From: Oceanospirillales bacterium
Lineage (GTDB): Bacteria > Pseudomonadota > Gammaproteobacteria > Xanthomonadales > SZUA-36
Reading direction: 5' to 3'
DNA: 40,406 nucleotides
Assembly: GCA_003232965.1 (NCBI GenBank)
Contig: QIKG01000097.1
Location: 1 to 40,406, forward strand
A program made the translations under genes and the position numbers. Below are positions 597 through 20,821 of this stretch, one piece after another. A model generated the notes under the pieces. That model saw only the letters and a program-made list of their open reading frames with translations, was not told where the DNA came from and made no database searches. The stretch's first letter is position 1, and every line of letters starts with the position of its first letter.

Positions 597-1694
597 TTGC
601 ATATTGTTCATTGTCTGGCATCCATGCAAACGGGTGGCTCCGAGCTGGTTGTGCTGGAGTTGACTGAAGCTGCGCGCAAGCAAGGCCACCGAGTAACTGT
701 GTTTTCAGCAGCCGGGGATTTGTGTACCCGACTGCATGCCAGCGGTGCTGAACACCTGCACTGGCCCATCGGCAAAAAAAACCTCCACACGCTGAAATTA
801 ATCCGCCGCATGAGCAACTGGCTGGCCGACAACCCTGCTGATATCGTGCATGTACATTCACGCCTACCTGCCTGGCTTGCCTGGAAGGCTATTCAGGCCC
901 TGCCGCTGCAACAACGACCGCATTTCATATCCAGCGTACATGGGCACTATTCAGTTAGTAAATACAGCGCAGTAATGACCTATGGCGAAAAAGTTATTGC
1001 GGTTTCAGACAGTATTGCCCGCTATATCCGCGAGAATTATCTACAAGTTGATGCATCTAAAGTTGTGGTGATTCCCCCCGGGGTTGATCATCTGCGCTTT
1101 CGGCAGCAGCAGATAGAACCTGAGTGGCTGGCAGCCTTTGCGTGTGAATTCCCAGGCGTAGGTGAGCGCAAATTATTGATGTTGCCGGGCCGAATTACCC
1201 GCCTAAAGGGGCATAAATGTTTTGTCCGCCTACTCGCCGGGCTGATCGCTGCCGGTGAAAATGTGCACGGCCTGATTATTGGGCCGATGTCGTCGGGTAA
1301 ACAACATTATCTGGATGAAATTTCAGAGCTGGCTCTGGATTTAGGAATTGCCGAACAACTCGACTATGCCGGTAATCGCAAAGACATGCCGGAATTAATG
1401 CAACGCGCCGAGCTGGTGCTTAATCTTTCTATCAAAGCCGAAGCCTTTGGCCGTACCGTTAATGAAGCGCTTAGCGTGGGTACGCCTGTAGTTGCCTGGG
1501 ATCGTGGCGGTGTTAATGAGTTGCTGGGTGAGTTATTTCCCCAAGGACGGGTCGAGCCGGGTGATGAAGCCGCCCTGCTGGAAACCTGCCGAAAGCTACT
1601 GCACCAAGCTGGTGAAATCAGCAGCAATCAGGCTTACAGCCTTGCGGCGACAAATGCGGCCACCTTAGATTTATACGCGGAGCTTTGCCGATGA
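597..1694 (+). CDS. glycosyltransferase family 4 (LPS core-type)
   Basis: 365-aa ORF with a TTG start. It has an N-terminal HIVHCLASMQTGGSE and a C-terminal EAFGRTVNEALSVGTPVV (E-x7-E type) motif, both typical of GT4. It sits immediately upstream of the O-antigen ligase gene. Confidence 0.85.
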   Translation: MHIVHCLASMQTGGSELVVLELTEAARKQGHRVTVFSAAGDLCTRLHASGAEHLHWPIGKKNLHTLKLIRRMSNWLADNPADIVHVHSRLPAWLAWKAIQALPLQQRPHFISSVHGHYSVSKYSAVMTYGEKVIAVSDSIARYIRENYLQVDASKVVVIPPGVDHLRFRQQQIEPEWLAAFACEFPGVGERKLLMLPGRITRLKGHKCFVRLLAGLIAAGENVHGLIIGPMSSGKQHYLDEISELALDLGIAEQLDYAGNRKDMPELMQRAELVLNLSIKAEAFGRTVNEALSVGTPVVAWDRGGVNELLGELFPQGRVEPGDEAALLETCRKLLHQAGEISSNQAYSLAATNAATLDLYAELCR

Positions 1695-2926
1695 TTGCCT
1701 CAGGCTACCAAAAGAATCCCTGGTGGGCGGCTGTACTGATCGCCGCTTATCCCATGCTGCTACCGTTTTCAAGAACAGCTGAAGTTCCACTTAGCATGTT
1801 GGCAATTACCGGCATGGTATTGCTCTGGCGACAGGGGCGCGCCATCAAACACTGGCCTAGCTCACGCGCCTTGCTACTGGTATTTTTATGTATGTGGCTA
1901 CCAATGGTGGTGTCCTCAGTAGATGCCTTTAATCCCTCTGGCTCCTGGTATCACAGCCTGGTGTCCCTGCGCTTTTTCTTTGCAGCTTTAGCCATGGCCT
2001 GGTTGTCCCGTTTCAGTGCGGTACGCGAACGTGCCATGCTATTAATATCCTTAGTGCTGGGTTTTTGGGTGGTCGACAGCCTGATACAGTTTATTTTCGG
2101 GGTGGATTTGCTCGGCTTCCCGAACACGGCTGACCGCCTCAATGGCCCTTTCGGCATGCGGCATTTTCGGCTCGGTATGATCCTTGCTGTATTTTCACCG
2201 ATTTTATTCGAACAGGTACGCCGCAGTTGGGGCGGTTACGGCCTGCTACTGGTCATACCGTTAACCGTTTTTGTGGTGATTCTCAGCGGGGTGCGCTCAG
2301 GCTGGGTGATCATCGCCTTGGCCGTGCCATTGTTTTTGTTTTGGGCCGCACGGCGAAATAACTGGCCGCTATTGCCTCTCAGCGCGATCACCACTGTCGG
2401 TGCTATTTTGCTGCTAAGTCTGGCCTGGGTGAGTTCACCATTGGTTCAGGAACGCATGGAGCTCAGCATGGGCCTGGGCTCCGGTGATATACAGACCACC
2501 GACCACGCCTTATCCAACCGCATACCTATCTGGGAGACATCACTGCGAATATTTAAAGCCTACCCGTTGGTTGGCGTTGGCATTGATAGTTATCGTGAAG
2601 CTTATGTGGTTTATGCAGCAGATGATGACCCGCATGTAGCTACTAATGGCATTGGTGGCTATCATGCACACAACCTGATTCTAGAGGTTCTGTCAGCTAC
2701 CGGCTTGCTTGGTCTGCTTGGATTAATCTTGGCCAGCCGCATTATGTATCGCCTATGGCAACAGGCAGATGCCGCTTCACGCCAGTCTATGCTGCCGTTT
2801 GCGCTGGCATTGGTGCTACTGATGTTGCCGTTTAATTCGCACTTCTCTCACTATGGTACTTTCCTGTCCTCAGTCAGTTGGTGGTTGCTCGGGCTATGGA
2901 TGGGTGCCTTCCGCCGGCGCGAATAA
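1691..2926 (+). CDS. waaL: O-antigen ligase (WaaL/Wzy_C family) membrane protein
   Basis: Polytopic hydrophobic protein with a ligase-type loop: RIPIWETSLRIFKAYPLVGVGIDSY...GGYHAHNLILEVLSATGLLGL. The ATG at 1691 overlaps the upstream TGA (ATGA); the track ORF starts at TTG 1685. Confidence 0.8.
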   Translation: MIASGYQKNPWWAAVLIAAYPMLLPFSRTAEVPLSMLAITGMVLLWRQGRAIKHWPSSRALLLVFLCMWLPMVVSSVDAFNPSGSWYHSLVSLRFFFAALAMAWLSRFSAVRERAMLLISLVLGFWVVDSLIQFIFGVDLLGFPNTADRLNGPFGMRHFRLGMILAVFSPILFEQVRRSWGGYGLLLVIPLTVFVVILSGVRSGWVIIALAVPLFLFWAARRNNWPLLPLSAITTVGAILLLSLAWVSSPLVQERMELSMGLGSGDIQTTDHALSNRIPIWETSLRIFKAYPLVGVGIDSYREAYVVYAADDDPHVATNGIGGYHAHNLILEVLSATGLLGLLGLILASRIMYRLWQQADAASRQSMLPFALALVLLMLPFNSHFSHYGTFLSSVSWWLLGLWMGAFRRRE

Positions 2927-4727: not shown

Positions 4728-4776
4728 CAAAAACCAACCAAGCCAAATTCTTTTCTCAAATATTTATAATTTCTTT

Positions 4777-9418: not shown

Positions 9419-9615
9419 CCTAACTATACAATTGTACCGTATTGAATTTATAAAATGTACAGAGTTAGCGTGCAAGCGGCTTTAGCCTTGACTTTAAGTG
9501 CTGTCGATGAGATTACAATAATATCACAGGGTCTATATCATTCCGCTATAATTAAAACCCTGAAACCCAAACCCTTGTTTGGCACAACAAAAACGTATAA
9601 GCATCCCTTAATATA

Positions 9616-10269
9616 ATGAATGTAGAACAAATAACCGAAACGATTCGGGGTTATCAAAAAGACGGAAAGAGACTGTTTGCAAGCTCCTCTTTCCAAACTC
9701 ATAGCATCCCCCTGTTACACATAATTAGCCAAATTGATCGCTCCATTCCAGTCATATTTATCAATACAGGTTATTTGTTCCCTGCAACATTAATATTTCG
9801 TGACCAGGTGGCTAAATCACTAGGGCTTACCATCATCAATGTATCATCGGTTGTCTCGCGCAATTTACAAAGGGATGGAACTGGAAACCTTTTTTTCACC
9901 TCCGACCCAGACCGGTGCTGCTATTTGAACAAAACCCAGCCAATGGAGCCAGTTCTTACAGAATATGATATCTGGATTAACGGTATTCGTGCTGACCAAA
10001 ATGCCAATCGCAATAAAATGAGCGTAGAACAAGATGGCGCCTTTAACTGCAAGCGATTTCACCCACTTCTTGACTGGGATAACCGGATGGTTTATCGCTA
10101 TATTAATCAGCACAAGCTCCCCCGACACCCACTGGATGACCAGGGGTATTTAAGTATTGGTTGTGAGCCTTGTACTCGAAAATTAGATATGACAAACGAT
10201 CGCGACGGACGCTGGTTCGGTTTAAATAAAACCGAATGTGGCCTGCATACTGACCTGGTGAGCAAATAA
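9616..10269 (+). CDS. cysH: adenylylsulfate (APS) reductase-type CysH family protein (Fe-S cysteine pairs present)
   Basis: SSSFQTHSIPLLHIISQIDRSIPVIFINTGYLFPAT parallels CysH. It carries the cysteine pairs DRCCYLNKTQP and SIGCEPCT plus a C-terminal TECGLH, which is the pattern of Fe-S APS reductases rather than E. coli-type PAPS reductase. Confidence 0.85.
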   Translation: MNVEQITETIRGYQKDGKRLFASSSFQTHSIPLLHIISQIDRSIPVIFINTGYLFPATLIFRDQVAKSLGLTIINVSSVVSRNLQRDGTGNLFFTSDPDRCCYLNKTQPMEPVLTEYDIWINGIRADQNANRNKMSVEQDGAFNCKRFHPLLDWDNRMVYRYINQHKLPRHPLDDQGYLSIGCEPCTRKLDMTNDRDGRWFGLNKTECGLHTDLVSK

Positions 10270-11186
10270 TGAAAATACTAATTACCGGCGGCGCAGGTTA
10301 TGTTGGAACCGTACTCAGCTATCAACTGGAAAATATCGCTGATATAGAAGAAATTATCATTTATGACAATTTACACCGCGGTAACTACAACCTGTTTATT
10401 GGCAGTAGCAAGTTAAAGAAAAAGTTAAGCTTTGTTGCAGGGGATATTCTTGATACCCGCAAACTGAAGCAGGCTCTTGAAGGTGTCGACATCGTTTATC
10501 ATTTAGCCGCAACTGTAACCACGCCCTTTGCTGACCAGGACCCGCATTTTTTTGAACAAATCAATCACTGGGGAACCGCTGAGTTAGTTAACGCCGTAGA
10601 AAAGAGCGGTGTCAAAAAATTCATTTATCTCAGCAGTGCATCTGTCTATGGAGATACTGCTGAAGAAGTTGATATAAATACCCCGGCAAATCCGATAACT
10701 TTCTACAGCATCTCAAAAATGCGTGGTGAAGAGCATGTCAGCAGATTGTCTGAATTAAAAATTGATACCTATATTTTTCGTTGCGCTAATGTGTATGGTT
10801 ATAGTAAAAGCATGCGATTTAATTCAGTCATCAACCGGTTTATGTTCAACGCAAACTTCACAAACCGCATCACCATTAACGGGAATGGTGAACAGCAGCG
10901 TTCGTTTATTCATATTGAAAAAGCTGCTTCTACCCTAGCCAGCCTTGTAAATACAAATTTAGTGGGTGGAAAATACAACCTCACAGAAAATATACTCTCT
11001 ATTAATGACATTGCTGACACGCTAAAGGAAGTTTATTCAAACCTAGAATATCTTTATATAAATCAGCAGCTTAATCTACATCAGCTCAAATTAAAGCCTG
11101 ACCCTGTTGTTAATGCGATGTCCAATACCAAAACACCAAGCCTGAAAGAATCACTTGAAATTTTTAAAAAGGCATTTACTTTTTAG
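10269..11186 (+). CDS. NAD-dependent epimerase/dehydratase (extended SDR)
   Basis: Motifs MKILITGGAGYVGTVL and YSISK (YxxxK). Its start overlaps the cysH stop (TAATG). Confidence 0.8.
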   Translation: MKILITGGAGYVGTVLSYQLENIADIEEIIIYDNLHRGNYNLFIGSSKLKKKLSFVAGDILDTRKLKQALEGVDIVYHLAATVTTPFADQDPHFFEQINHWGTAELVNAVEKSGVKKFIYLSSASVYGDTAEEVDINTPANPITFYSISKMRGEEHVSRLSELKIDTYIFRCANVYGYSKSMRFNSVINRFMFNANFTNRITINGNGEQQRSFIHIEKAASTLASLVNTNLVGGKYNLTENILSINDIADTLKEVYSNLEYLYINQQLNLHQLKLKPDPVVNAMSNTKTPSLKESLEIFKKAFTF

Positions 11187-11263
11187 TTCTTGATAAGGCA
11201 AATAAAACAACCGCTCAGTCAATTGATTAATTCGATCTTATTGCCTGGTTTTCTGGTGTCAAA

Positions 11264-11959
11264 TCAGTTTTTAATAAATTGCTTATAGGCACTAACAACT
11301 TCCTCAGTCTCACCAATCATCTTGATTTTTCCTTGATCTAGCCATAGTGCGCGCTCACAAAGTTTTAGTATCTGATTCATGGAATGAGAAACCAGAACAA
11401 CCGTTTGTTTTGAGTTAATTTTATCCAGCATGGCCTTATTAGCTTTCAGCTTAAATTTACCATCACCTACACCGAGAACTTCGTCAATCAGCAAAAGCTC
11501 TGATCTCATTTTCAGCGCCACTGAAAACCCAAGCCGGGCACGCATGCCGCTTGAGTAGGTTTTAATCGGATTGTCAATAAAATCTTCGAGCTCTGAAAAC
11601 TCAATAATTTCATCAAGCATGGCAAGCACTTCTCGTTTACGGGCTCCCAAAAACATGCCACTAATAATCGCATTGTCCCTACCGGACAGCTCAGGATCAA
11701 AGCCTAAGGCTAAAGACAGTAGGGCAACCTGCTTGCAGTGCCAGCTAACTGTGCCGCTATCGACCTCATAAATATTGGCCAACACCCTTAACAAAGTAGA
11801 TTTACCACAACCATTAGAGCCCAAAACACCCAGTGTTTCACCTCTTTTTATGGTAAAACTCACATCCTCAAGGGCTGCAAAATAATCATGCCGAAAAAAG
11901 GAACGGCGGGTTCTGTATTGAACCCCAACATTATGCAATTCCATCACATTATTGTTCAC
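11264..11959 (-). CDS. wzt: polysaccharide/O-antigen export ABC transporter ATP-binding protein (Wzt/KpsT-like, NBD only)
   Basis: Walker A GSNGCGKST, signature YSSGMRARLGF and Walker B LLLIDEVL are present. It is only 231 aa, so it has no C-terminal carbohydrate-binding extension. The GTG start overlaps the wzm stop (GTGA). Confidence 0.85.
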   Translation of the reverse strand: MNNNVMELHNVGVQYRTRRSFFRHDYFAALEDVSFTIKRGETLGVLGSNGCGKSTLLRVLANIYEVDSGTVSWHCKQVALLSLALGFDPELSGRDNAIISGMFLGARKREVLAMLDEIIEFSELEDFIDNPIKTYSSGMRARLGFSVALKMRSELLLIDEVLGVGDGKFKLKANKAMLDKINSKQTVVLVSHSMNQILKLCERALWLDQGKIKMIGETEEVVSAYKQFIKN

Positions 11960-12732
11960 TGTGCTATCAACCGCGCATAATTAGTTTCTGTTTTTCGGTA
12001 ATACCATGTCATAGCGATAATTAAAACCAAACTACCAAGGCAAATCAAACCCAGTGCAGACCAGTCAGGGAGAACATTATCCATTAGCACCTGTCGATAG
12101 TTTTTAATTAGGTTAGCTATAGGGTTCATCAAAAATAGGCGCTGATGATCCGGGTGAATAACATCTGTATAACTATAAAATATTCCTGAGCCTAGCATCA
12201 GGGCCATTAATCCCGTAGAAACCAAATATCGAAAATCAGGAATATAGGGCGTCACTGCCGCCACCAACATCGCAACCGCAAAAGTTAACAAAAACTGAGT
12301 TAATATCACAAAAATTATACTAAGCCAGACCCAGGAAATATCAAGCCCATAGAGATACAAAAAACCAAACATAAACGCAAACACCACTGTTTGCTTGAAA
12401 GCATCCTGAAATACAACCAATAGCGGAAAGAAAGGCATTGGAATAGACACTTGGTTAATCAGACCGCGACCTGCAGTGATCGAGCCAGTCGCATTGCCAA
12501 TGCTACGGGAAAACCACGAAAAAGGGATTCTTCCACAGATCAGAAAAATTAAAAAATTTGATGTCCTTGTTTCCAGAAAAACACCGAAAACCAGATAGAG
12601 TACCGCCACCATCAAGGCAGGCTCCAATAACCACCAAATATAACTAAGGTAGGTTTTTGAGGCCTCAGATTTTAAATTGAACACCAACTTGGTGAAGAAC
12701 ACCTCAACGAGGTGTGCTCTAGATATAAACAT
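11956..12732 (-). CDS. wzm: polysaccharide/O-antigen export ABC-2 permease (Wzm/KpsM-like)
   Basis: 258-aa protein with about six hydrophobic spans, immediately upstream of and overlapping the ATPase gene. The N-terminus YLSYIWWLLEPALMV is typical of the ABC-2 family. Confidence 0.85.
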   Translation of the reverse strand: MFISRAHLVEVFFTKLVFNLKSEASKTYLSYIWWLLEPALMVAVLYLVFGVFLETRTSNFLIFLICGRIPFSWFSRSIGNATGSITAGRGLINQVSIPMPFFPLLVVFQDAFKQTVVFAFMFGFLYLYGLDISWVWLSIIFVILTQFLLTFAVAMLVAAVTPYIPDFRYLVSTGLMALMLGSGIFYSYTDVIHPDHQRLFLMNPIANLIKNYRQVLMDNVLPDWSALGLICLGSLVLIIAMTWYYRKTETNYARLIAQ

Positions 12733-12852
12733 TCTTATTCACTAATGTGACCGCACAATTTGCATTGTAACACTTTCGCACTCACCGGTAATTGTTGGAT
12801 CAAGGTCAGGCTTTGAGTGCCGCTTCTTTAATGTATGATAGGCACCTAATCG

Positions 12853-12886
12853 GTTTAGACCCCTGAGTTTAGACTTGAGTTTAGAC
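12853..12886. promoter_or_regulatory. three direct repeats of GTTTAGAC (12853, 12867, 12879) in the wzm / GT2 divergent intergenic region
   Basis: Read directly: cGGTTTAGACccctgaGTTTAGACttgaGTTTAGACtgtg. The last two copies form a 12-nt tandem, TGAGTTTAGACT. They lie between divergent starts at 12732 and 12964. Confidence 0.3.
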
Positions 12887-12963
12887 TGTGCCCTCTTGCT
12901 CATCAACAAGAGCTTGTTTCAACAAAGCCTGCCTGTGCAGCCTTACATGCAAAGTGGTGTCAG

Positions 12964-14559
12964 ATGCGAGAAGTTTTTTACAAGGCTTACTTCAAACTGC
13001 TGTCTATACGGCCACTGGGCGCTTGGATGCAGAATTTGCGTCAAATTCTTGGCAAACACCTTAATCAGGCCGCTACGAAAAACGATTTAGTCACAATAAG
13101 GGCCCTTGCACAGCATCGCCATGCAGCTATTCTAAAGCTGATTAATAAAAACAGAAGAAAACGGACTGACCTACCGAGCATAGACTTGGTATTGGTTGCA
13201 AGCAATGATATTAAAAGCTTTGTGATCAGCCTACGCACAATCAAAAAACAGTCATACCCTAGTGAAAAAATCACACTAACGATCCTGCTGCTAGGAAATC
13301 AACAAATATCTGCAATGCCACTGCTGCCCGTTAATACTTTCAAGGCACAATATATCCAACTAACAGAGGAAAACACCACAGCCGCCTTTTTTCAGGCTAT
13401 CGAAAACCTAAGCGCCCCTTACTTTTTGCTAATGCAGCAACCATTTGAGTTAGCTGAACACTGTCTTGAAACCTGTGTACAAAATTGCATAGCAAGCGAT
13501 ACAGACACCAGCTTGTGGGAACTTAGTCCATCACTTAGCAAGCGAGTAACCTATTATGACCCTGTAACGCTGGAGGTTCCGAGTTCCGATTTAGAGCTTG
13601 GCATTATCAGGCGACAGTCATACCTTACTATTGGTGGCTTTAATCCACAACTTCCGCTTTCTCAACAAGGGTTTGATCTAGGCTTCCGTCTACGCTCTCA
13701 CGGGTATCGCTTGAAAAACATTGGCCAATCCGAGCTTTACCAAAGCTCTCGTGTAAGCAACAACAGCCTAATACAATCATCAAGATTGCATAGCCAAGAA
13801 ACTGATTTCGGTATGGGGTCCTGCCTTAAGCTTTCAACAGTACTTCCCCAAAAAGAGACTAAAGTTTCGATAGTTATGCGCACTTATGCAGGCAGAAGTG
13901 CATGGCTTCACGAAAGCATTTGTAGTGTACTCAACCAGACTCACCCTAATATTGAGCTTATTATTATTGAAGACGGCTCAAATGAGCATTCGGTGCTGAT
14001 AAATCAACTCCTACCCGCATTAAACCCTGGGCAGAGCATAAAGTACTTAAGCCAACAGAAGCTTGGCAAAGCCCATGCCGGCAACCTAGGCCTAGAGAGC
14101 GCTACCGGCAACTATATTGGTTTTTTGGATGATGACGACCTATTGTTTGCCAATCATGTTGAGTTGCTATTAGGCACAGCCCTTGCAAACAAGCAGGCAA
14201 GCGGGGCATACGCACTAGCCTGGGAGGTGCGAACGGCTACTCCCCCGGGAATGCCATACGCTGAACAACACTACGAAGTACCCGCAACATCTCGACAAAC
14301 CTATTCCCGAGAGGCCTTCCTGAAACATAACCTCTGGTCGATTCAAAGCGTGCTCTTTGAAAGAAGCCTTTATGACCGATATGGGGGCTTCAATATTAAA
14401 TGTGAACACCTGGAAGACTGGGATCTATGGCTTCGCTACACCCAGACATCCCACTTTGCATTTCTTCCCCATATCACATCACTTTACCGCACGCCTGCCG
14501 ACCCTTATCAATTTTTATCTCGCGTCGGCAATCCAGAAAGAAGAGCCCTGATAGAGTAA
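12964..14559 (+). CDS. two-domain glycosyltransferase: degenerate GT2-like N-domain plus canonical GT2 C-domain
   Basis: The C-domain has VSIVMRTYAGRSAWLHESICSVLNQTHPNIELIIIEDGS and GFLDDDDLLFANH. The N-domain (IDLVLVASNDIKSFVISLRTIKKQSYPSEKITLTILL) is GT2-shaped, but LLMQQP replaces the DxD. The start is uncertain. Confidence 0.75.
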   Translation: MREVFYKAYFKLLSIRPLGAWMQNLRQILGKHLNQAATKNDLVTIRALAQHRHAAILKLINKNRRKRTDLPSIDLVLVASNDIKSFVISLRTIKKQSYPSEKITLTILLLGNQQISAMPLLPVNTFKAQYIQLTEENTTAAFFQAIENLSAPYFLLMQQPFELAEHCLETCVQNCIASDTDTSLWELSPSLSKRVTYYDPVTLEVPSSDLELGIIRRQSYLTIGGFNPQLPLSQQGFDLGFRLRSHGYRLKNIGQSELYQSSRVSNNSLIQSSRLHSQETDFGMGSCLKLSTVLPQKETKVSIVMRTYAGRSAWLHESICSVLNQTHPNIELIIIEDGSNEHSVLINQLLPALNPGQSIKYLSQQKLGKAHAGNLGLESATGNYIGFLDDDDLLFANHVELLLGTALANKQASGAYALAWEVRTATPPGMPYAEQHYEVPATSRQTYSREAFLKHNLWSIQSVLFERSLYDRYGGFNIKCEHLEDWDLWLRYTQTSHFAFLPHITSLYRTPADPYQFLSRVGNPERRALIE

Positions 14560-14619
14560 GTAAAAAGCTGTATACTTACCGGTTAAGTATTCAAAAAAAT
14601 ACATTGGGGATCCTTTAGG

Positions 14620-15648
14620 ATGAAGAATTTTTTATCAAATAAACGCGTCTTGGTTACGGGCGTTTGTGGTACTGTCGGCAGAGAAATTACGCGGATGTTA
14701 CTATCTGGTGACTTTGGCGAACTGGCTGAATTAATTGGTATCGATAACAACGAATCCGAATTATTTTTTGTGGCCCAAGAATTTAACCAGCCCAGCGCTC
14801 AGTTTTTTCTACGAGACCTAAGAGATTACCCGGGTTTACAGGAGGTTTGCCAAAATGTTGATGTTGTTTTCCATGCTGCTGCACTTAAACATGTGGGTAT
14901 TTGCGAACTTTCACCCAGTGAGGCGGTGCAAACCAACATCATAGGCCTTCAAAATTTGATTAATGCCGCTAAAAGATGCCGAGTCGAGCATTTCATTTTT
15001 ACCAGTTCCGATAAAGCGGTTAACCCTACCAATGTAATGGGAACATCTAAGTTAATGGGCGAGCGTTTGGTTACCGCGGCGAACAATTCACGCGAAAACC
15101 AGGGCACCATTTTTGCATCTACACGGTTTGGTAATGTGCTGGGTTCGCGGGGTTCAGTAGTGCCAATATTTCACGACCAAATACTTCAAGGCAAAGATAT
15201 AACCTTAACCAGCCCTGAAATGACACGATTTATTATGTCTATCAGCGAGGCAGCCGACCTTGTCATTGCTTCTGCTGCCGAGGCCAAGGGCGGGGAAGTT
15301 TTTATTACCAAAATGCCGGTTATCCGTATTCAGGATCTTGCTGAAGTAATGGTAGATATGCTGGTGGAAGAGCACTCGCTACCAAAACGGTCAAACATTA
15401 TCGAAATTGGCGTCAAGCCCGGCGAAAAGCTCTATGAAGAACTAATGAGCGATGAAGAAACCGCCCGTGCATTGGAAACAGAGCCGTATTTTGTAGTGTT
15501 GCCGGCGTTCCGGGATATGTACGATATCGACTATAGTTATAACAATGAAGTCGCTAACGCTCTGCTTAAGCCGTATAAATCATCTGAAGAAAAAATGCTT
15601 AGCCAGGCTGAATTAAAAGACTACTTACAAAAGTTTAATATTGTTTAA
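14620..15648 (+). CDS. nucleotide-sugar 4,6-dehydratase/epimerase of the Polysacc_synt_2 family (PseB/CapD/FnlA-like)
   Basis: Motifs KRVLVTGVCGTVGREI, TSSDKAVNPTNVMGTSK and TRFGNVLGSRGSVVPIF. Confidence 0.8.
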   Translation: MKNFLSNKRVLVTGVCGTVGREITRMLLSGDFGELAELIGIDNNESELFFVAQEFNQPSAQFFLRDLRDYPGLQEVCQNVDVVFHAAALKHVGICELSPSEAVQTNIIGLQNLINAAKRCRVEHFIFTSSDKAVNPTNVMGTSKLMGERLVTAANNSRENQGTIFASTRFGNVLGSRGSVVPIFHDQILQGKDITLTSPEMTRFIMSISEAADLVIASAAEAKGGEVFITKMPVIRIQDLAEVMVDMLVEEHSLPKRSNIIEIGVKPGEKLYEELMSDEETARALETEPYFVVLPAFRDMYDIDYSYNNEVANALLKPYKSSEEKMLSQAELKDYLQKFNIV

Positions 15649-15680
15649 GATTAAAAGTCTCAAACAAAGAGGAGAATAAA

Positions 15681-16826
15681 ATGCGCGTTCTAATACTTGG
15701 GGGTGATGGTTATCTGGGCTGGCCCACCGCAATGCACTTTTCAGCCAAAGGCCACGAAGTTGCCGTGGTTGATAATTACCTGAGGCGCAACATTGCGCGC
15801 GAAACCGACAGCGGAACCCTCTACCCCACGCCTAACCTGCACGAGCGTGCAGAAATATGGGAAGATCATTCCGGTAAAAATATTTCTGTTCATATTGGTG
15901 ACCTGTGCGACTGGAATTTTATTAATTCCCTATTTGCCGAATTTAAACCCGACACCATTATTCATTACGCCGAACAACCTTCTGCTCCCTATTCAATGTT
16001 AAGTACAGCCGCAGCCCGGCTGACTCTCTCAAACAATATTGGGGTCACCGGCAATGTTGTGCTGGCGATGAAAGAACACTGCCCTGATGCTCACCTCATC
16101 AAACTGGGCACAATGGGCGAATATGGCACCCCCAATATTGATATAGAAGAAGGCTGGCTTGAAGTTGAACACAAAGGCCGCTCCCAAAAATTTCTCTACC
16201 CCCGCCAGGCAGGCAGTTTGTACCACACCACCAAAGTAATGGACACCGATCTGCTTTGGTTTTATGTGCGTACCTGGGGATTACGAGTAACCGACCTTAT
16301 GCAAGGCCCGGTATATGGCATCTTTACGGATGAAAATACCCACGACGACCGCTTGTTGCCCTGTTTTGCCTATGATGAGATATTTGGCACAGTTATCAAT
16401 CGCTTTGTTGTACAAGCCGTTGCCGGTTACCCACTAACAGTATATGGCAAAGGAGGCCAAACGCGGGGTTACCTCAATCTGAAAGACACCCTGCAATGCC
16501 TTTTACTTGCAGCAGAAAACCCAGCTGATAGCGGTGAAATGAAAATTTACAATCAACTAACTGAAACATTCTCGGTGAATGAAATTGCCGACCATGTGCA
16601 GCGTGTTGGTAAGCAGTTTGGGCTGGATGTACAAATAAAAAGCATAGAAAACCCGAGAAAAGAGTTGGAAGAACATTACTACAACCCGGCACACACCGGA
16701 CTGCTAGAGCTTGGGCTAAAACCAAACTATCTCACAGACGAGGCGCTTGGAGAAATCATCCAAAAAGTCATTCAATATAAAGATGACATTGTGCAAGACC
16801 GTATTTTCCGTGGTGTTAAGTGGTGA
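15681..16826 (+). CDS. sqdB: UDP-sulfoquinovose synthase
   Basis: Resembles SQD1/SqdB end to end (from memory). Shared motifs: MRVLILGGDGYLGWPTA, EQPSAPYSM, KLGTMGEYGTPNIDIEEG, YHTTK, LTVYGKGGQTRGYL, FSVNE and EEHYYNP. A GAGGAG ribosome-binding site precedes the ATG. Confidence 0.9.
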   Translation: MRVLILGGDGYLGWPTAMHFSAKGHEVAVVDNYLRRNIARETDSGTLYPTPNLHERAEIWEDHSGKNISVHIGDLCDWNFINSLFAEFKPDTIIHYAEQPSAPYSMLSTAAARLTLSNNIGVTGNVVLAMKEHCPDAHLIKLGTMGEYGTPNIDIEEGWLEVEHKGRSQKFLYPRQAGSLYHTTKVMDTDLLWFYVRTWGLRVTDLMQGPVYGIFTDENTHDDRLLPCFAYDEIFGTVINRFVVQAVAGYPLTVYGKGGQTRGYLNLKDTLQCLLLAAENPADSGEMKIYNQLTETFSVNEIADHVQRVGKQFGLDVQIKSIENPRKELEEHYYNPAHTGLLELGLKPNYLTDEALGEIIQKVIQYKDDIVQDRIFRGVKW

Positions 16827-17812
16827 GTAGTAAAAAATGGCTTATCACCGGAGGCTGTGGCTTTATTGGTACATCGCTAATACAACAACTACTGAAAAAC
16901 GATGCGCATACCGACATCCGAATACTGGATAACTTGTCGGTAGGTTCCGAGGAAGACCTTGCTGAAGTGGCTGAATTTAATAAAATAAGCCACCCCGATG
17001 CCCCACCTGAAGGTGTTGAGTTACTGGTTGGCGACATAACAAACGCACAAGACTGCCTAGATGCAAGCAAAGGTATCGATATTATTGTGCACCTTGCAGC
17101 CAATACCGGTGTTGGGCCTTCCGTTGAAGATCCCGAAGGGGATATGCGGGCAAATGTTATCGGCATTTTCAATATGCTGGAGGCTGCGCGGACAAATGCT
17201 GTCAATAAATTCATTTTTGCATCATCCGGCGCACCCATTGGAGAACTAAAAAACCCTCCCATACATGAGGAACTGGCAGCCCACCCAGTTTCACCTTATG
17301 GTGCAAGCAAGCTGGCGGGTGAAGGGTATTGTTCCGCCTATTACCACTCCTTTGGTATCAACACTATTGCCTTGCGGTTTGGTAATGTTTACGGGCCCAG
17401 GAGCAAACACAAAGCCAGCGTTGTTGCCAAGTTCATTAAACAGGCAATAAACGGTGAGACCTGTGAAATTTATGGTACGGGTCTGCAGACCAGGGATTTT
17501 ATTTATATACTGGATCTCGTAGATGCCATCATCAAATCCGCTCAGGTAGATATCGGTGGCGAGGTTTTCCAAATTGCCAGCAGCAAAGAGCGCACAGTCA
17601 ATGAAATCGCAAAAATTGTAGAACAAGAGCTAAAACATCATGGGACGAACCTAAAACTGAAATATGGAGAAGCCAGACCCGGCGATGTCATGAGAAATTT
17701 TTCTGATACAACCAAAGCAAAAAAAATCTTAGGTTGGCATGCGATAACAAATATCAATTATGGGATAAATAAAACAATTGAAAATTTGATAAAAAATCTT
17801 TATCCTAAATAG
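16820..17812 (+). CDS. NAD-dependent sugar-nucleotide epimerase (GalE/WbpP-like extended SDR)
   Basis: Motifs WLITGGCGFIGTSL, SPYGASKLAGE and LRFGNVYGP. The GTG starts at 16820/16823 overlap the sqdB stop codon (16824-16826). Confidence 0.8.
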   Translation: MVSSKKWLITGGCGFIGTSLIQQLLKNDAHTDIRILDNLSVGSEEDLAEVAEFNKISHPDAPPEGVELLVGDITNAQDCLDASKGIDIIVHLAANTGVGPSVEDPEGDMRANVIGIFNMLEAARTNAVNKFIFASSGAPIGELKNPPIHEELAAHPVSPYGASKLAGEGYCSAYYHSFGINTIALRFGNVYGPRSKHKASVVAKFIKQAINGETCEIYGTGLQTRDFIYILDLVDAIIKSAQVDIGGEVFQIASSKERTVNEIAKIVEQELKHHGTNLKLKYGEARPGDVMRNFSDTTKAKKILGWHAITNINYGINKTIENLIKNLYPK

Positions 17813-17863: not shown

Positions 17864-19684
17864 ATGAAGTATTCATCAGACGGCGCTAGTATGAATCTTG
17901 CTGCTGCCCCTTATTCAGGTGCATTTTTTAAAAACGTTCATTTCTGGACACCACCAGTATCAACCATAAAACCTAGGAAGAAAAAACCTAACTCCTCTCT
18001 ACGAATGGCTGGGATTGTAAGCAAAAGATTATATGAAGGCCTAAAATATGAGGGCAAGTTATTCCTACTAACACCAAATAACTGGGGCGAGATTTTGCAG
18101 TATGGAAAGCTCGACTTACTTATTGTCGAGTCATGTTGGGAAACTGCAACTGGTGATTGGTATCTGTCACAAGTTACCATTAATGAACAAACAGCACTTT
18201 TAGTAAAATTAATACGGTTGGCTAAAAAACTTTCTATACCATGCGTCTTCTGGAATACTAAAGATCATCTATACCACAGTCATTATGAAGACTTTGCAAA
18301 ACAATTCGATTATATTTTTTGTGCTGATCCTAATGTTGTTGAGTCATTACGAAAACAGCACATAAAAGCAAATATACTCCTTCCCGCAATCCAGCCTGCA
18401 CTCCATAATGCTTTTAGAGAACATGGGGATACCAACGAATTTGAACTCGGTATCCTATTTGATGGCTGGGTAGATCTGATACGCCATTCGGAAAAGCTGC
18501 AAGTACTAAGCATATTGAAAAAATATGGGTTAGCAATAATTGAGTCTAAAGGACGACTGTTACGAGGGAAAATAGATGAACTCCCAGAGTATTCCAGTTC
18601 AATTCTCGGTTGTGTGACAAATGAAATAAGAAGAGTCTGTCTGAAATACGCAAAAACTGCGTTAACATTTGATGTGAGTACTTTTAGTAGCACAGAGCAA
18701 CAATGGAGAGCTCTTGAAATGGCGGGTTTTCGCCTACCGGTGCTGTACAGGGGAAAGTTACCAGATGGTGATATACGGAAAAATATCGTAGATGAGCAAA
18801 TGACAGATAAGGCCCTGATACAAAGGCTTAATCATTTTAAAAACAATGATTTAGATAGGAAAAAAATCGGACACCTTGCTTGGCGTGAGGTCTACAGTAA
18901 CCATACCTTTTCCCATCGCTTACAGTCTATCTGCATGGAGCTAGGGGTTTTTCATGATTGGATTGAGTTTCCTGCAATTAGCATGATTACACCTACCTTT
19001 CGTGTAGAACTGCTAACACGTTGCATCGAGACATTTGAAAAGCAGTCATACCCAAATAAAGATTTAGTTCTTGTCATTAATAGCAATAGACAAGACTTAC
19101 CAGGAGTTGGTGACCTAGTTTCTGACAAAGAGGACATTCAAGTAATACAGATGCCACAAGAGTGTTTCGTGGGTGGTTGCTTGAATATAGGGAATGCTAT
19201 AGCAAAAGGAGAATACTGTCTAAGAGTTGATGATGATGACTTCTATGGTAAATATTGTATTTCTGATATTTCACTTCATTTAAAATCAATAGATATAGAC
19301 TTATTCGGCAAACCGACTCCTTACTTTTTTTTTGAGGGTGACGAATGTGTGTATGAACGACCATTCAGGGTGCCTGATCTGACTATCATTCCGCCAAATG
19401 AACTCGAAGACTGGACCACACATGTTGCTGGTAACCTACTAGGTGGCAAGAGAGAATTTCTTCTTTCCACAGGTTACCCAGATAACGCTTTCGCAGCTGC
19501 CGATAGTAGCTTCTTATATTCTTTGAGTGAAAAAGAGTTTAATTACTGTTGTTTGGATAGTGCTAATATGGTCATTTATCGAGGTTTGAATTTACAGAGC
19601 CATACTTGGAGGCTACCTAAGCATCGTATTCTTGATAATGCAACCGCGCTTGATCAAGAAACACCAAGCGATATGATGTATTAA
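17864..19684 (+). CDS. bifunctional glycosyltransferase (CgeB/DUF3880-like N-domain plus GT2 C-domain)
   Basis: The N-domain has LDLLIVESCWETATGDWYLSQV..IPCVFWNTKDHLYHSHYEDFAKQFDYIFCAD, a CgeB-like GT pattern (from memory). The C-domain has ISMITPTFRVELLTRCIETFEKQSYPNKDLVLVINSN and RVDDDDFYG, typical of GT2. Confidence 0.7.
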   Translation: MKYSSDGASMNLAAAPYSGAFFKNVHFWTPPVSTIKPRKKKPNSSLRMAGIVSKRLYEGLKYEGKLFLLTPNNWGEILQYGKLDLLIVESCWETATGDWYLSQVTINEQTALLVKLIRLAKKLSIPCVFWNTKDHLYHSHYEDFAKQFDYIFCADPNVVESLRKQHIKANILLPAIQPALHNAFREHGDTNEFELGILFDGWVDLIRHSEKLQVLSILKKYGLAIIESKGRLLRGKIDELPEYSSSILGCVTNEIRRVCLKYAKTALTFDVSTFSSTEQQWRALEMAGFRLPVLYRGKLPDGDIRKNIVDEQMTDKALIQRLNHFKNNDLDRKKIGHLAWREVYSNHTFSHRLQSICMELGVFHDWIEFPAISMITPTFRVELLTRCIETFEKQSYPNKDLVLVINSNRQDLPGVGDLVSDKEDIQVIQMPQECFVGGCLNIGNAIAKGEYCLRVDDDDFYGKYCISDISLHLKSIDIDLFGKPTPYFFFEGDECVYERPFRVPDLTIIPPNELEDWTTHVAGNLLGGKREFLLSTGYPDNAFAAADSSFLYSLSEKEFNYCCLDSANMVIYRGLNLQSHTWRLPKHRILDNATALDQETPSDMMY

Positions 19685-19705: not shown

Positions 19706-20821
19706 ATGAAAATTATATACATAACTAGGGCAGCCTTTGGTTTGTTAGGTGGCGCAGACAGCTATCTTATACCTACATATGCAAATAAAAAGTGCGATGT
19801 TACGGTCCTATCAAACTTCATACCCCATTCTAAAGAGAAAGTTGTTTTTAGTTGCCCAGATCTCGAAATTCATGATGTATATTCCCGCAATACTACAGAA
19901 AGAGTTTTGAAGGTCTTAAATCATATATATAAAATAAAGCCGGATATTATACATATCTTCCACGGGCCTGATTGCTTAAGATACCCATATTTGCTACGAG
20001 GGTTAACCCCAAATGTTAAATGGGTATTAGATTTTCGATCCCCGCCTGTAACAAAAAACCGTACAGAACTTAACAAAGTGTTGTGGCGCTACTTTTTATG
20101 TCAATTTTATTATGACCAAATCCTGACTCACTCAAAGTTAACAATTAAGGATAATTTGCCTTTTCGTTTTAAAAGATTTATCGAGCTACCCCTAGGGGTT
20201 GAGTTAGCAAAAATTCCATTTGCAAATATCGGCAAACTAAAGCCTGTGAAGTTTGTATATATTGGAAGTGTAACAAAATCACGTCAACTTTTTTTACTGG
20301 TCGAATCATTTGCAAAATTCGCAGCCAACACTGAAGCAAGAGTTACTTTAGATATAATTGGTGATGGGAATGCAGTTGGTCCAATCAATGAACTAATATC
20401 TTCTAAGAAAATTAATAACCATGTGCAATTAAAAGGGTTTTTACCTCAACATGAAATTTATAAAATCATGCAAAATTATGATGTTGGAATAGCGTATGTA
20501 CCTTATGATAAATTTACAAGAGCACCATCCTTAAAATCCTTGGAATATGCTGCAGCAGGCTTACCTGTTCTAGCTTCTGATACTAAAGGACATAAAGACT
20601 TTGTTAATCGGTTTGGTTTTAAATTCGATCTTTTTAAAAACTCATCTAACGGGATCATAGATGCTTTTGAATGCTTTCTTAAAGATGGTGTATCACACAC
20701 TAAAATTAACAATAATCTTAAAGTAGTTAAAACCTTTGACTGGGAAAATCTTATTGAGAATATTCTTATACCAACATATACGAAATTATTGAAAACTCAC
20801 CATAACCTAACAAAGAAGTGA
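19706..20821 (+). CDS. glycosyltransferase family 4
   Basis: FVYIGSVTKSRQL and LEYAAAGLPVLASDTKGHKDFV form a GT4 C-terminal Rossmann/EX7E-like region. Confidence 0.8.
   Translation: MKIIYITRAAFGLLGGADSYLIPTYANKKCDVTVLSNFIPHSKEKVVFSCPDLEIHDVYSRNTTERVLKVLNHIYKIKPDIIHIFHGPDCLRYPYLLRGLTPNVKWVLDFRSPPVTKNRTELNKVLWRYFLCQFYYDQILTHSKLTIKDNLPFRFKRFIELPLGVELAKIPFANIGKLKPVKFVYIGSVTKSRQLFLLVESFAKFAANTEARVTLDIIGDGNAVGPINELISSKKINNHVQLKGFLPQHEIYKIMQNYDVGIAYVPYDKFTRAPSLKSLEYAAAGLPVLASDTKGHKDFVNRFGFKFDLFKNSSNGIIDAFECFLKDGVSHTKINNNLKVVKTFDWENLIENILIPTYTKLLKTHHNLTKK

What the first reader, a model, noticed from the sequence alone, without database searches (positions are those of the whole stretch)
9616..17812. 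Fe-S APS-reductase-type cysH plus UDP-sulfoquinovose synthase inside an ABC-transporter glycan locus: predicted sulfoquinovose-containing surface polysaccharide with its own sulfite supply
**sqdB.** ORF 15681-16826 matches SQD1/SqdB across its length. Shared motifs are GGDGYLGWPTA, EQPSAPYSM, KLGTMGEYGTPNIDIEEG, YHTTK, LTVYGKGGQTRGYL and EEHYYNP. SqdB makes UDP-6-sulfoquinovose from UDP-glucose and sulfite.

**cysH.** ORF 9616-10269, in the same locus, is a CysH-family reductase. It carries the CC (DRCCYLNK) and CxxC (SIGCEPCT) pairs plus a C-terminal ECGLH. That is the Fe-S APS-reductase type, whose product is sulfite.

**Context.** Neither gene sits with cys-regulon genes or with recognisable sqdX/sqdD lipid genes. 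Both are embedded among wzm/wzt, SDR enzymes and many GTs. Each is translationally coupled to an SDR epimerase-like gene (TAATG at 10269; GTG 16820 overlapping the sqdB stop).

**Inference.** A locus-private sulfite source feeds a sulfoquinovose residue, or an epimerised 6-sulfo-hexose, into an exported glycan. SQ is established in SQDG lipids and Sulfolobus N-glycans. I am not aware of a characterised bacterial ABC-transporter polysaccharide pathway that uses it, but I cannot verify that here.
Basis: partly seen in the sequence, partly recalled or inferred. Interest (0 to 1): 0.85.

Follow-up and report, generated by a model that had tools for sequence, protein, structure and literature searches.

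The report
Sulfo-sugar gene cassette in O-antigen locus
A marine gammaproteobacterial LPS locus carries an uncharacterised relative of the plant sulfolipid enzyme SQD1 plus its own sulfite-making reductase, so it probably builds a carbon-sulfonated sugar into an exported polysaccharide, which I found no report of in bacteria.

Summary
ORF 15681-16826 aligns without gaps over 380 residues to Arabidopsis SQD1 (E 1e-130, 49% identity) and keeps the TMGEY and YHxxK catalytic motifs. ORF 9616-10269 is a CysH with the CC, CxxC and ECGLH cysteines of Fe-S APS reductases. Both lie in a low-GC wzm/wzt glycosyltransferase locus next to a WaaL-like ligase gene, with no SqdX or SqdD.

Comparative genomics supports the predicted coupling. 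A same-strand cassette cysH, SDR305, PglF/Pen-like dehydratase, sqdB, GalE-like SDR recurs in distant genomes (Motilimonas pumila, Ca. Fredericiella, a deltaproteobacterium).

- The enzyme belongs to a large uncharacterised clade with Pro where SQD1, Agl3 and S. meliloti SqdB have Arg101. Agl3 R101A is inactive.
- A PglF-type dehydratase gene lies within 10 kb of this clade's gene in 70 of 76 loci, against 0 of 80 SQD1-type loci. The product may therefore not be plain sulfoquinovose.
- The cysH is a Bacteroidota-type xenolog that always travels with SDR305.

No report of a sulfosugar in a bacterial polysaccharide was found. Verdict: real, a new variant of a known kind, chemistry unproven.

The parts
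9616..10269 (+). cysH-like thioredoxin-type (P)APS reductase, 217 aa, with Fe-S cluster cysteines (CC 101-102, CxxC, ECGLH); proposed sulfite source
   Evidence: PF01507 E 7e-40. NF002537 222 bits against a 154 cut-off. Cysteine motifs align with those of Mtb APS reductase 7lhr. Nearest named relatives are Flavobacteriales/Bacteroidota at 62-70% identity. Found next to Pro-type sqdB in L003, L004, L006, L050, L069 and L165.
10269..11186 (+). Extended SDR (GalE-like, S...YxxxK), 305 aa, translationally coupled to cysH; always travels with this cysH type; role unknown (epimerase or reductase on the sulfosugar is a guess)
   Evidence: PF01370 E 2e-38. PDB hits are generic epimerases. The cysH-SDR pair is conserved in L003, L004, L006, L050, L069, L165 and in Bacteroidota L164, L166, L167. 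TAATG overlap.
11264..11959 (-). Wzt, ABC-transporter ATPase for polysaccharide export (short form, no carbohydrate-binding domain)
   Evidence: PF00005 E 1.4e-22. Best NCBIfam matches are galactan and teichoic-acid export ATPases.
11956..12732 (-). Wzm, ABC-2 type permease partner of Wzt
   Evidence: PF01061 25.5 bits, just under the 26.9 cut-off. Overlaps the wzt start. The wzm-wzt pair is conserved in L001, L003, L004 and L006.
12964..14559 (+). GT2 glycosyltransferase, 531 aa, first gene of the sulfosugar operon
   Evidence: PF00535 E 1.9e-20. Homologs upstream of the dehydratase-sqdB pair in L002, L003 and L004 at 37-94% identity.
14620..15648 (+). Short soluble Polysacc_synt_2 dehydratase with the PglF/WbpM-type motif TSSDK...M-G-T-S-K; conserved partner of Pro-type SqdB
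   Evidence: PF02719 E 1e-91. Best PDB hit is 6bwc, deposited as CapD (which I recall, from memory, as the 5,6-dehydratase Pen), 250 bits. Within 10 kb in 70 of 76 Pro-clade loci and directly upstream in 51; 0 of 80 in Arg-clade loci. Met-for-Tyr motif in 54 of 55 partners where the motif could be located (62 in the cluster).
15681..16826 (+). SQD1/SqdB-family enzyme, 381 aa, Pro-type (Pro100 in place of SQD1 Arg101); proposed sulfite-adding UDP-sugar synthase
   Evidence: Gapless alignment to SQD1, E 1e-130, 49% identity. TMGEY and YHTTK retained. Pro is found in 117 of its 120 closest database homologs; Arg in all 80 SQD1-like loci and in S. meliloti SqdB. 23 clade-discriminating positions.
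16820..17812 (+). GalE/WbpP/WbgU-like extended SDR, 330 aa, start overlapping the sqdB stop; candidate 4-epimerase or 4-reductase
   Evidence: PF01370 E 2e-54. Best PDB hits are UDP-hexose and UDP-HexNAc 4-epimerases. A homolog of at least 40% identity is present in 28 of 76 loci and directly downstream of sqdB in 19.
17864..19684 (+). GT2 glycosyltransferase, 606 aa
   Evidence: PF00535 E 9e-9. Homologs at 27-41% identity in L001, L002, L004, L006, L051, L057 and L059.
19706..20821 (+). GT4 glycosyltransferase, 371 aa; not an SqdX ortholog
   Evidence: PF00534 E 7e-17. Only 23% identity over 175 residues to an inferred SqdX, the GT4 next to Arg-type sqdB on contig L095, which I judge cyanobacterial-type from its sequence.
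1685..2926 (+). WaaL-like O-antigen ligase; marks the locus as LPS-related
   Evidence: PF04932 Wzy_C E 3.7e-23. A lipid A acyltransferase gene lies at 3708-4730.
35840..36802 (+). PAPS-type sulfotransferase in the same locus (with 37001-37639(-) and weaker 32796-33494, 21884-23569)
   Evidence: PF13469 E 7e-30. PF03567 E 7.5e-14 for 37001-37639.

Best explanation
The window is the O-polysaccharide region of a marine gammaproteobacterium (Lysobacterales-like). It uses the ABC-transporter (Wzm/Wzt) route followed by WaaL ligation. Embedded in it is a horizontally mobile 'sulfosugar cassette'.

Proposed steps:
1. The Fe-S CysH (9616) reduces APS, possibly also PAPS, to sulfite using thioredoxin.
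2. The SQD1-family enzyme (15681) oxidises a UDP-hexose at C4, forms the 4-keto-5,6-ene, adds sulfite at C6 and re-reduces C4. The product is a UDP-6-deoxy-6-sulfo-hexose, most simply UDP-sulfoquinovose.
3. The flanking SDRs (14620 PglF-like, 16820 GalE-like, 10269) either tailor this sugar, for example by 4-epimerisation to sulfofucose, or make a companion 6-deoxy-HexNAc.
4. The adjacent GT2 and GT4 enzymes build the sugar into an undecaprenyl-linked glycan. That glycan is also O-sulfated by the locus sulfotransferases, exported by Wzm/Wzt and ligated to lipid A-core.

Shown: gene identities, conserved catalytic motifs, and conserved gene linkage across phyla. Inferred: sulfite use, the identity of the sugar, and its incorporation into LPS.
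For: - SQD1 homology is full-length with catalytic motifs retained.
- CysH carries the Fe-S cysteines and the catalytic ECGLH.
- A contiguous same-strand run cysH, SDR305, dehydratase, sqdB, SDR330 occurs in L006 (Motilimonas pumila, directly after wzm-wzt) and in L069. In L050 the cysH-SDR305 pair lies about 4 kb upstream on the same strand. The same genes occur in L003, L004 and L165.
- cysH lies within 10 kb of this sqdB type in about five independent lineages against about 0.4 expected (Poisson P about 6e-5). It is seen in 0 of 80 Arg-type loci, although those had shorter flanks.
- Neighbours of this sqdB clade across more than 10 phyla are surface-glycan genes: DegT aminotransferases, acetyltransferases, PglC-like and WbpM-like genes, NeuB-like genes and ABC exporters.
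- No SqdX or SqdD is present.
- A WaaL-like gene, a lipid A acyltransferase gene and wzm/wzt are in the window.
- GC content is 0.37-0.47 in the locus against 0.52 on the core-LPS side.
- Agl3 establishes a precedent for UDP-SQ feeding a glycan (PMC4388408).
Against: - No member of the Pro-type clade has been characterised, as far as I could find.
- Arg101 is replaced by Pro. Arg101 is invariant in SQD1, Agl3, S. meliloti SqdB and all 80 SQD1-like loci, and its mutation to Ala inactivates Agl3.
- 22 other positions, several near the YHxxK and NQG motifs, also differ systematically.
- The tight pairing with a PglF-type dehydratase is not needed by SQD1 and is unexplained by this model.
- Only a minority of Pro-type loci carry cysH.
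- The same cysH-SDR pair also occurs alone in Bacteroidota, far from any sqdB.
- No chemical report of a sulfonated sugar in a bacterial polysaccharide was found.
Confidence: 0.6

Rival explanations
1. Two-enzyme ('split') sulfosugar synthase that makes a different sugar. The PglF/Pen-like dehydratase (14620) acts on UDP-GlcNAc and delivers a 5,6-ene or 4-keto-5,6-ene intermediate. The Pro-type SqdB adds sulfite to it. The product would be UDP-2-acetamido-2,6-dideoxy-6-sulfo-glucose ('UDP-sulfo-QuiNAc') or its 4-epimer after the GalE-like SDR. CysH still supplies the sulfite.
For: - The dehydratase is within 10 kb in 70 of 76 Pro-clade loci and directly upstream on the same strand in 51, against 0 of 80 Arg-clade loci.
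- Several loci also carry a separate WbpM-like long dehydratase, so the short one is not simply the general UDP-GlcNAc dehydratase.
- Agl3 R101A is inactive, and here that residue is Pro.
- Free UDP-glucose-5,6-ene is a competent Agl3 intermediate.
- Clade-specific changes sit next to the sugar-facing NQG and YHxxK motifs.
Against: - At 49% identity with a gapless alignment and all other tested catalytic residues kept (H95, M145, E147, Y148, S180, Y182, T185, K186), the enzyme looks self-sufficient.
- Six of the 76 Pro-clade loci with enough upstream sequence lack the dehydratase within 10 kb.
- A haloarchaeal Pro-type sqdB has no PglF-like neighbour.
- Long SqdB-family proteins are insertions, not dehydratase fusions.
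- No such sugar is described in the searched literature.
Confidence: 0.2
2. The SqdB-like enzyme does not use sulfite here. It would be a dehydratase or epimerase making an ordinary deoxy or unsaturated sugar, and the cysH is a displaced or housekeeping assimilatory gene. The glycan's only sulfur would be sulfate esters from the locus sulfotransferases.
For: - The essential Arg101 is lost.
- Agl3 and SQD1 act as 5,6-dehydratases without sulfite.
- Most Pro-type loci have no cysH nearby.
- The cysH-SDR pair exists independently in Bacteroidota.
- Whether a second cysH exists in this genome is unknown.
Against: - cysH co-localises repeatedly and in order with this sqdB type in unrelated lineages, against about 0.4 expected.
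- The cysH is a Bacteroidota-type xenolog with low GC, not the Pseudomonas-type expected in a gammaproteobacterium.
- There are no cysDN, cysIJ or cysK genes beside it.
Confidence: 0.12
3. Sulfolipid synthesis. The UDP-sulfosugar is used for SQDG or another membrane glycolipid, and the neighbouring glycan genes are unrelated.
For: - All characterised bacterial SqdB enzymes serve SQDG.
- A GT4 gene lies 3 kb downstream in the same operon.
Against: - GT4 19706 shares only 23% identity over its C-terminal half with the SqdX-type GT.
- There is no SqdD or SqdX hit in the window or in any of the roughly 80 Pro-clade loci.
- SqdX-like GTs are instead found next to Arg-type sqdB.
- The operon is flanked by wzm/wzt and large GT2 genes.
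Confidence: 0.04

Closest known systems
SQD1/SqdB with SQD2/SqdX (plant and cyanobacterial sulfolipid SQDG pathway)
   Same: Same enzyme family. The alignment is gapless at 49% identity and keeps the TMGEY and YHxxK catalytic motifs. The presumed chemistry is the same: UDP-sugar plus sulfite gives a UDP-6-sulfo sugar. In chloroplasts the sulfite also comes from an Fe-S APS reductase (established knowledge).
   Different: Pro replaces the conserved Arg101, and 22 further clade-specific substitutions exist. There is no SqdX or SqdD partner. The enzyme is paired instead with a PglF-type dehydratase, GalE-like SDRs, large GT2 enzymes and an ABC exporter, and the reductase is encoded in the same locus.
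Agl3 of Sulfolobus acidocaldarius (UDP-SQ synthase for N-glycans)
   Same: A UDP-sulfosugar feeds a lipid-linked surface glycan rather than a membrane lipid.
   Different: Agl3 is archaeal, serves a protein N-glycan, and is Arg-type. Its neighbourhood is not reported to contain a dedicated reductase or PglF-like partner (from memory; not checked here).
Sulfofucose (6-deoxy-6-sulfo-D-galactose) in Thermoplasma N-glycans and Fucaceae lipids
   Same: It is the 4-epimer of SQ. The GalE/WbpP-like SDR coupled to sqdB (16820) could make the UDP form.
   Different: No biosynthetic pathway for sulfofucose has been identified (PMC12421959). Nothing here proves epimerisation.
PglF/WbpM and Pen (UDP-GlcNAc 4,6- and 5,6-dehydratases)
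   Same: ORF 14620 has the T-S-S-D-K and Met-x3-Lys constellation of PglF/WbpM. Its best structural relative is 6bwc, deposited as CapD, which I recall from memory as Pen.
   Different: It is a short soluble form, fixed next to a sulfite-adding enzyme homolog. Its substrate and product are unknown.
Sulfated O-polysaccharides of marine bacteria (sulfate esters made by PAPS sulfotransferases)
   Same: It is an anionic, sulfur-bearing surface glycan of a marine gammaproteobacterium, and sulfotransferase genes are present in the window.
   Different: Those carry O-sulfate esters. This locus additionally predicts a C-S bonded sulfonate.

Membership tests
UDP-sulfoquinovose synthase (SQD1/SqdB/Agl3) | Full-length homology to a solved or characterised member | tested here: met
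   1qrr E 1e-130, residues 2-381 aligned without gaps, 49% identity.
UDP-sulfoquinovose synthase (SQD1/SqdB/Agl3) | Catalytic Thr145/Tyr182/Lys186, the [ST]MG fingerprint, and His183, Glu147, Tyr148, His95 | tested here: met
   GTMGEYG, YHTTK and IIHYAEQ are present. The fingerprint comes from PMC8987622 and the Agl3 mutagenesis from PMC4388408.
UDP-sulfoquinovose synthase (SQD1/SqdB/Agl3) | Arg101 (EQRSAP). It is essential in Agl3 and conserved in SQD1, S. meliloti SqdB and 80 of 80 SQD1-like loci. | tested here: not met
   The window has Pro100 (EQPSAP), as do 117 of its 120 closest homologs.
UDP-sulfoquinovose synthase (SQD1/SqdB/Agl3) | Score above the NCBIfam NF041015 equivalog cut-off (575 bits) | tested here: inconclusive
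   The window scores 445.8, but the authentic SQD1 control also scores only 482.9.
UDP-sulfoquinovose synthase (SQD1/SqdB/Agl3) | Placement inside an experimentally characterised clade | tested here: not met
   In a neighbour-joining tree the window's clade is separate from the SQD1/cyanobacterial-type clade and from the S. meliloti clade.
UDP-sulfoquinovose synthase (SQD1/SqdB/Agl3) | Converts UDP-glucose plus sulfite to UDP-SQ | not testable with these tools
   Needs an enzyme assay.
SQDG sulfolipid pathway | An SqdX/SQD2-type GT4, or SqdD/SqdC/SqdA, accompanies sqdB | tested here: not met
   GT4 19706 is 23% identical to an SqdX-type GT over 175 residues. There are no SqdX or SqdD hits in the window, and none among Pro-clade loci.
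Fe-S assimilatory APS reductase (CysH of M. tuberculosis / P. aeruginosa type) | PAPS_reduct domain with a C-terminal ECGLH catalytic cysteine | tested here: met
   PF01507 E 7e-40. KTECGLH aligns with 7lhr.
Fe-S assimilatory APS reductase (CysH of M. tuberculosis / P. aeruginosa type) | Four cluster cysteines (CC ... CxxC) | tested here: met
   DRCCYLNK and SIGCEPCT align with HECCRLRK and SIGCAPCT of 7lhr. That these are the cluster ligands is established knowledge.
Fe-S assimilatory APS reductase (CysH of M. tuberculosis / P. aeruginosa type) | Score above the TIGR02055 APS_reductase cut-off | tested here: not met
   148.7 bits against a 235.3 cut-off. It also falls below TIGR02057 PAPS_reductase (157.3 against 254.2). 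It passes the general NF002537 and TIGR00434 models. It is a separate, Bacteroidota-type lineage.
Fe-S assimilatory APS reductase (CysH of M. tuberculosis / P. aeruginosa type) | Prefers APS over PAPS; product is sulfite | not testable with these tools
   Inferred from the Fe-S motif only. From general knowledge, B. subtilis CysH has the cluster and uses both substrates.
ABC-transporter-dependent O-antigen pathway | Adjacent Wzm permease and Wzt ATPase | tested here: met
   Wzt: PF00005, with best NCBIfam matches to polysaccharide export ATPases. Wzm: PF01061 25.5 bits, just under the cut-off, overlapping wzt and conserved in related loci.
ABC-transporter-dependent O-antigen pathway | WaaL ligase and LPS core or lipid A genes nearby | tested here: met
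   PF04932 E 3.7e-23 at 1685-2926. Lipid A acyltransferase at 3708-4730.
ABC-transporter-dependent O-antigen pathway | The glycan is actually O-antigen rather than capsule or EPS | not testable with these tools
   Needs chemistry or genetics.

The most novel reading that the evidence does not exclude
The Pro-type SqdB and its fixed PglF-like partner form a two-enzyme route to a sulfosugar not yet described. Candidates are UDP-6-sulfo-QuiNAc, or UDP-sulfofucose and related sugars, for which no biosynthesis is known. The mobile Fe-S APS reductase and SDR module supplies the sulfite. This cassette would install C-sulfonated sugars in surface polysaccharides of bacteria from more than ten phyla, creating a large and overlooked pool of organosulfonate outside phototroph lipids.
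Probability: 0.22. Interest if true: 0.88.

Novelty: new variant of a known kind. Interest (0 to 1): 0.7.

Why it matters
Sulfoquinovose is treated as a product of phototrophs (the lipid SQDG) and of a few archaea (N-glycans), and marine and soil sulfonate budgets and sqdB gene surveys are read in that light.

If this cassette works as predicted, many heterotrophic bacteria would make sulfonated sugars for LPS or capsules. The groups involved include Gamma-, Alpha- and Betaproteobacteria, Desulfobacterota, Planctomycetota, Verrucomicrobiota, Acidobacteriota, Rubrobacter and Bacteroidota.

Consequences if true:
- A new class of acid-stable anionic O-antigen.
- A new source of substrate for sulfoglycolytic bacteria.
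- A candidate biosynthetic route to sulfofucose, for which none is known.
- Environmental sqdB sequences of the Pro type should not be counted as sulfolipid markers.

Three cultured strains carry the cassette, so the question can be tested directly.

Tried and rejected
- Exact look-up of the window's SqdB in public assemblies found nothing. Relatives were used instead.
- The NCBIfam equivalog cut-off was rejected as a membership test, because authentic SQD1 also fails it.
- Rosetta-stone fusion of dehydratase and SqdB: proteins of 680-1160 aa in the representative search looked promising. They are SqdB interrupted by intein-like insertions of roughly 260-460 aa, not fusions.
- GT4 19706 as SqdX: rejected. 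SqdD and SqdC: no specific hits.
- The SQD1 structure paper (PMC23906) is not held, so the structural role of Arg101 could not be read. By alignment to GalE (from memory) the position corresponds to Lys84, an NAD-contacting residue. The Arg-to-Pro change may therefore affect cofactor handling rather than sulfite binding. This is unresolved.
- Literature searches found no report of a C-sulfonated sugar in a bacterial polysaccharide. Terms covered sulfoquinovose with O-antigen, LPS or capsule; sqdB with polysaccharide; and sulfoquinovosamine and its variants. The library is incomplete, so this is absence of evidence only.
- Promoter and terminator scans around cysH gave nothing beyond chance, apart from a well-placed 10/12 promoter-like site at 9523-9552.

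Full report
**1. Observation**

The window holds about 32 genes and has the layout of an LPS region.
- On the 0.52-GC side are a GT4, a WaaL-like ligase (PF04932), a GT2, a lipid A acyltransferase and TatD.
- A lower-GC block (0.34-0.47) follows. It carries ugd, a GDP-mannose dehydratase and an adjacent epimerase/reductase-family SDR (7229-8353), wzm/wzt, many glycosyltransferases, a 1239-aa Glyphos_transf+GT2 protein, a methyltransferase-domain protein and three to four sulfotransferases.

ORF 15681-16826 (381 aa):
- It aligns with Arabidopsis SQD1 (1qrr) from residue 2 to 381 without a single gap, E 1e-130.
- Identity is 49%.
- It matches NCBIfam NF041015 (UDP-sulfoquinovose synthase) end to end at 445.8 bits, below the 575 cut-off. 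SQD1 itself scores only 482.9, so that cut-off says nothing.
- The [ST]MG...Yx3K fingerprint of SQ synthases (PMC8987622) is present as GTMGEYG and YHTTK.

ORF 9616-10269 (217 aa):
- It is a PAPS_reduct protein (PF01507, E 7e-40).
- It passes NF002537 and TIGR00434.
- Its CC, CxxC and ECGLH align with the corresponding cysteine motifs of M. tuberculosis APS reductase.

**2. Organism and relatives**

The closest SqdB homologs are a Lysobacterales/Xanthomonadales MAG (97%), Microbulbifer agarilyticus (85%) and Parahaliea aestuarii (82%).

In all of these the gene sits between a short Polysacc_synt_2 dehydratase and glycosyltransferases. It is often accompanied by wzm/wzt, sulfotransferases and a PAPS_reduct gene.

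**3. A conserved cassette**

A scan of one genome per species returned 80 loci at 61-97% identity from more than ten phyla.
- tblastn with the window's proteins and de novo clustering of all ORFs show the homolog of 14620-15648 within 10 kb in 70 of 76 loci that have enough upstream sequence. It lies directly upstream on the same strand in 51.
- A GalE/WbpP-like SDR of at least 40% identity to 16820-17812 is present in 28 loci and directly downstream in 19.
- Other recurrent neighbours are DegT aminotransferases, hexapeptide acetyltransferases, UDP-GlcNAc 2-epimerases, WbpM-like long dehydratases, PglC-like phosphoglycosyl transferases and NeuB-like synthases. These are surface-glycan genes, not lipid genes.
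- No SqdX or SqdD homolog occurs in the window or in any of these loci.
- GT4 19706 shares only generic C-terminal GT4 similarity with an SqdX-type transferase.

**4. The cysH link**

- In Motilimonas pumila (L006) the order is wzm, wzt, cysH, SDR305, dehydratase, sqdB, SDR330, GT2, all on one strand.
- Ca. Fredericiella danica (L069) has the same five genes in the same order. In a deltaproteobacterial MAG (L050) cysH and SDR305 lie about 4 kb upstream of the dehydratase-sqdB pair on the same strand, and the SDR downstream of sqdB is only 34% identical to 16820 and is separated from sqdB by a Ugd-like gene.
- L003, L004 and L165 have the window's arrangement.
- These CysH proteins are only 42-45% identical to the window's, yet they keep the CC, CxxC and ECGLH motifs.
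- M. agarilyticus has a different, cluster-less PAPS_reduct gene 7 kb from sqdB.
- About five independent lineages show cysH within 10 kb of this sqdB type. About 0.4 would be expected for a single-copy gene in a 4-Mb genome, giving a Poisson P of about 6e-5.
- None was seen beside 80 SQD1-type genes, although those loci had shorter flanks.

This is the strongest evidence that the reductase feeds the SqdB-like enzyme.

The window's CysH is 62-70% identical to Flavobacteriales/Bacteroidota proteins. It is far from the Pseudomonas-type enzyme expected in a gammaproteobacterium (97 bits to 2goy). It is therefore a xenolog. Whether a housekeeping copy also exists could not be checked.

**5.

- SQD1 reads EQRSAPYSM. 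The window reads EQPSAPYSM.
- Agl3 R101A is inactive (PMC4388408).
- Pro is found in 117 of the 120 closest database homologs and in all clade members in the genome loci.
- Arg is found in all 80 SQD1-like metagenome loci, in S. meliloti SqdB, whose function is proven, in a Microbulbifer plasmid copy that sits next to an SqdX-like GT, and in Agl3.
- Twenty-two further positions separate the two clades at 90% conservation or better. They include 184, 185, 208 and 211 beside the YHxxK and NQG motifs.
- In a rough neighbour-joining tree the window's clade is distinct from both characterised clades. Pro is common in many deep, uncharacterised lineages, including haloarchaeal ones.
- The PglF-like neighbour is absent from all 80 Arg-type loci. 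There the neighbours are SqdX-like GT4, ArnT-like GT39, HpnI-like GT2 and AsnB.

The partner carries the T-S-S-D-K ... M-G-x-[ST]-K constellation typical of PglF/WbpM in 54 of 55 cases where the motif could be located, out of 62 cluster members. Its best solved relative is 6bwc, deposited as CapD, which I recall from memory as the 5,6-dehydratase Pen.

**6. Mechanism**

The simplest reading (confidence 0.6):
- CysH produces sulfite.
- The Pro-type enzyme makes a UDP-6-deoxy-6-sulfo-hexose.
- The SDRs tailor it or make a companion 6-deoxy-HexNAc.
- GT2 and GT4 enzymes polymerise on undecaprenyl phosphate.
- Sulfotransferases add ester sulfate.
- Wzm/Wzt export the chain and WaaL ligates it.

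The main rival (0.2) is that dehydratase and SqdB form a two-step synthase acting on UDP-GlcNAc.
- This would explain both the loss of Arg101 and the obligate pairing.
- It is weakened by Pro-type genes that lack the partner.
- It is also weakened by retention of every other residue shown to matter in Agl3.

A non-sulfonate role (0.12) and a sulfolipid role (0.04) are less likely.

**7. Novelty**

A 2025 paper from a sulfoglycolysis laboratory lists the known natural sulfosugars. These are SQ in SQDG, and sulfofucose in Fucaceae lipids and Thermoplasma N-glycans. SQ in archaeal N-glycans is documented separately (PMC4388408). The paper states that no sulfofucose biosynthesis is known (PMC12421959). 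None of my searches found a C-sulfonated sugar in a bacterial polysaccharide, or any study of this clade.

The enzyme family and the chemistry are known. The clade, its partners, the built-in reductase and the glycan destination are new. Hence my rating of a new variant of a known kind, interest 0.7, pending enzymology and sugar analysis in the three cultured carriers.

Noticed in passing
L164 6001-7571; L166 10001-11579; L167 10001-11584 (compare window 9616-11186): The Fe-S CysH (217 aa) and the ~306-aa extended SDR form a stand-alone two-gene module in Bacteroidota genomes. It sits in unrelated housekeeping neighbourhoods, with no cysDN, sulfite reductase or sqdB within 6-10 kb. What the pair does on its own is unexplained.
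   Followed up: partly
L171 6001-9202 (Haladaptatus pallidirubidus plasmid): A haloarchaeal Pro-type SqdB homolog is followed by an SDR 36% identical to the window's SDR305 and by a second SDR. There is no PglF-like gene and no cysH. SDR305-like enzymes therefore associate with Pro-type SqdB in archaea as well.
   Followed up: partly
Proteins P0245, P0250, P0263, P0271, P0273, P0280, P0344, P0372 and others: Many SqdB-family proteins of 680-1160 aa are SqdB interrupted by one or two insertions of roughly 260-460 aa after about residue 145-190 or about 235. They look intein-like and lie close to the catalytic motifs.
   Followed up: no
L096-L163 (soil and peat metagenome contigs): Arg-type (SQD1-like) sqdB in soil bacteria sits beside three recurrent neighbours. 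These are an ArnT/GT39-like membrane glycosyltransferase (29 loci), an HpnI-like GT2 (21 loci; TIGR03472 278 bits against a 310 cut-off) and asparagine synthase (23 loci). This hints at sulfoquinovose on a hopanoid or another lipid carrier rather than on diacylglycerol.
   Followed up: no
L170 8007-10232 (Microbulbifer sp. MKSA007 plasmid) versus L001 (M. agarilyticus chromosome): One genus holds both kinds. The plasmid has an Arg-type sqdB with an SqdX-like GT, which looks lipid-type. The chromosome has a Pro-type sqdB inside a glycan locus with wzm/wzt and sulfotransferases.
   Followed up: partly
window 21884-23569, 32796-33494, 35840-36802, 37001-37639, 29064-32783, 23717-24610: The same locus encodes three to four sulfotransferase-like proteins, a 1239-aa Glyphos_transf+GT2 protein and a GT10-like (fucosyltransferase-like) protein, with gmd and an adjacent epimerase/reductase-family SDR (7229-8353) upstream. 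The glycan is probably also O-sulfated and may carry fucose or 6-deoxyhexose and a glycerol-phosphate substituent.
   Followed up: no
window 24680-26266(-), 37863-38651(-), 38712-39767(-), 21082-21720(+): Four sizeable ORFs inside or at the edge of the locus have no Pfam match at E 0.01 or better, apart from a sub-threshold CdhD hit for 21082.
   Followed up: no
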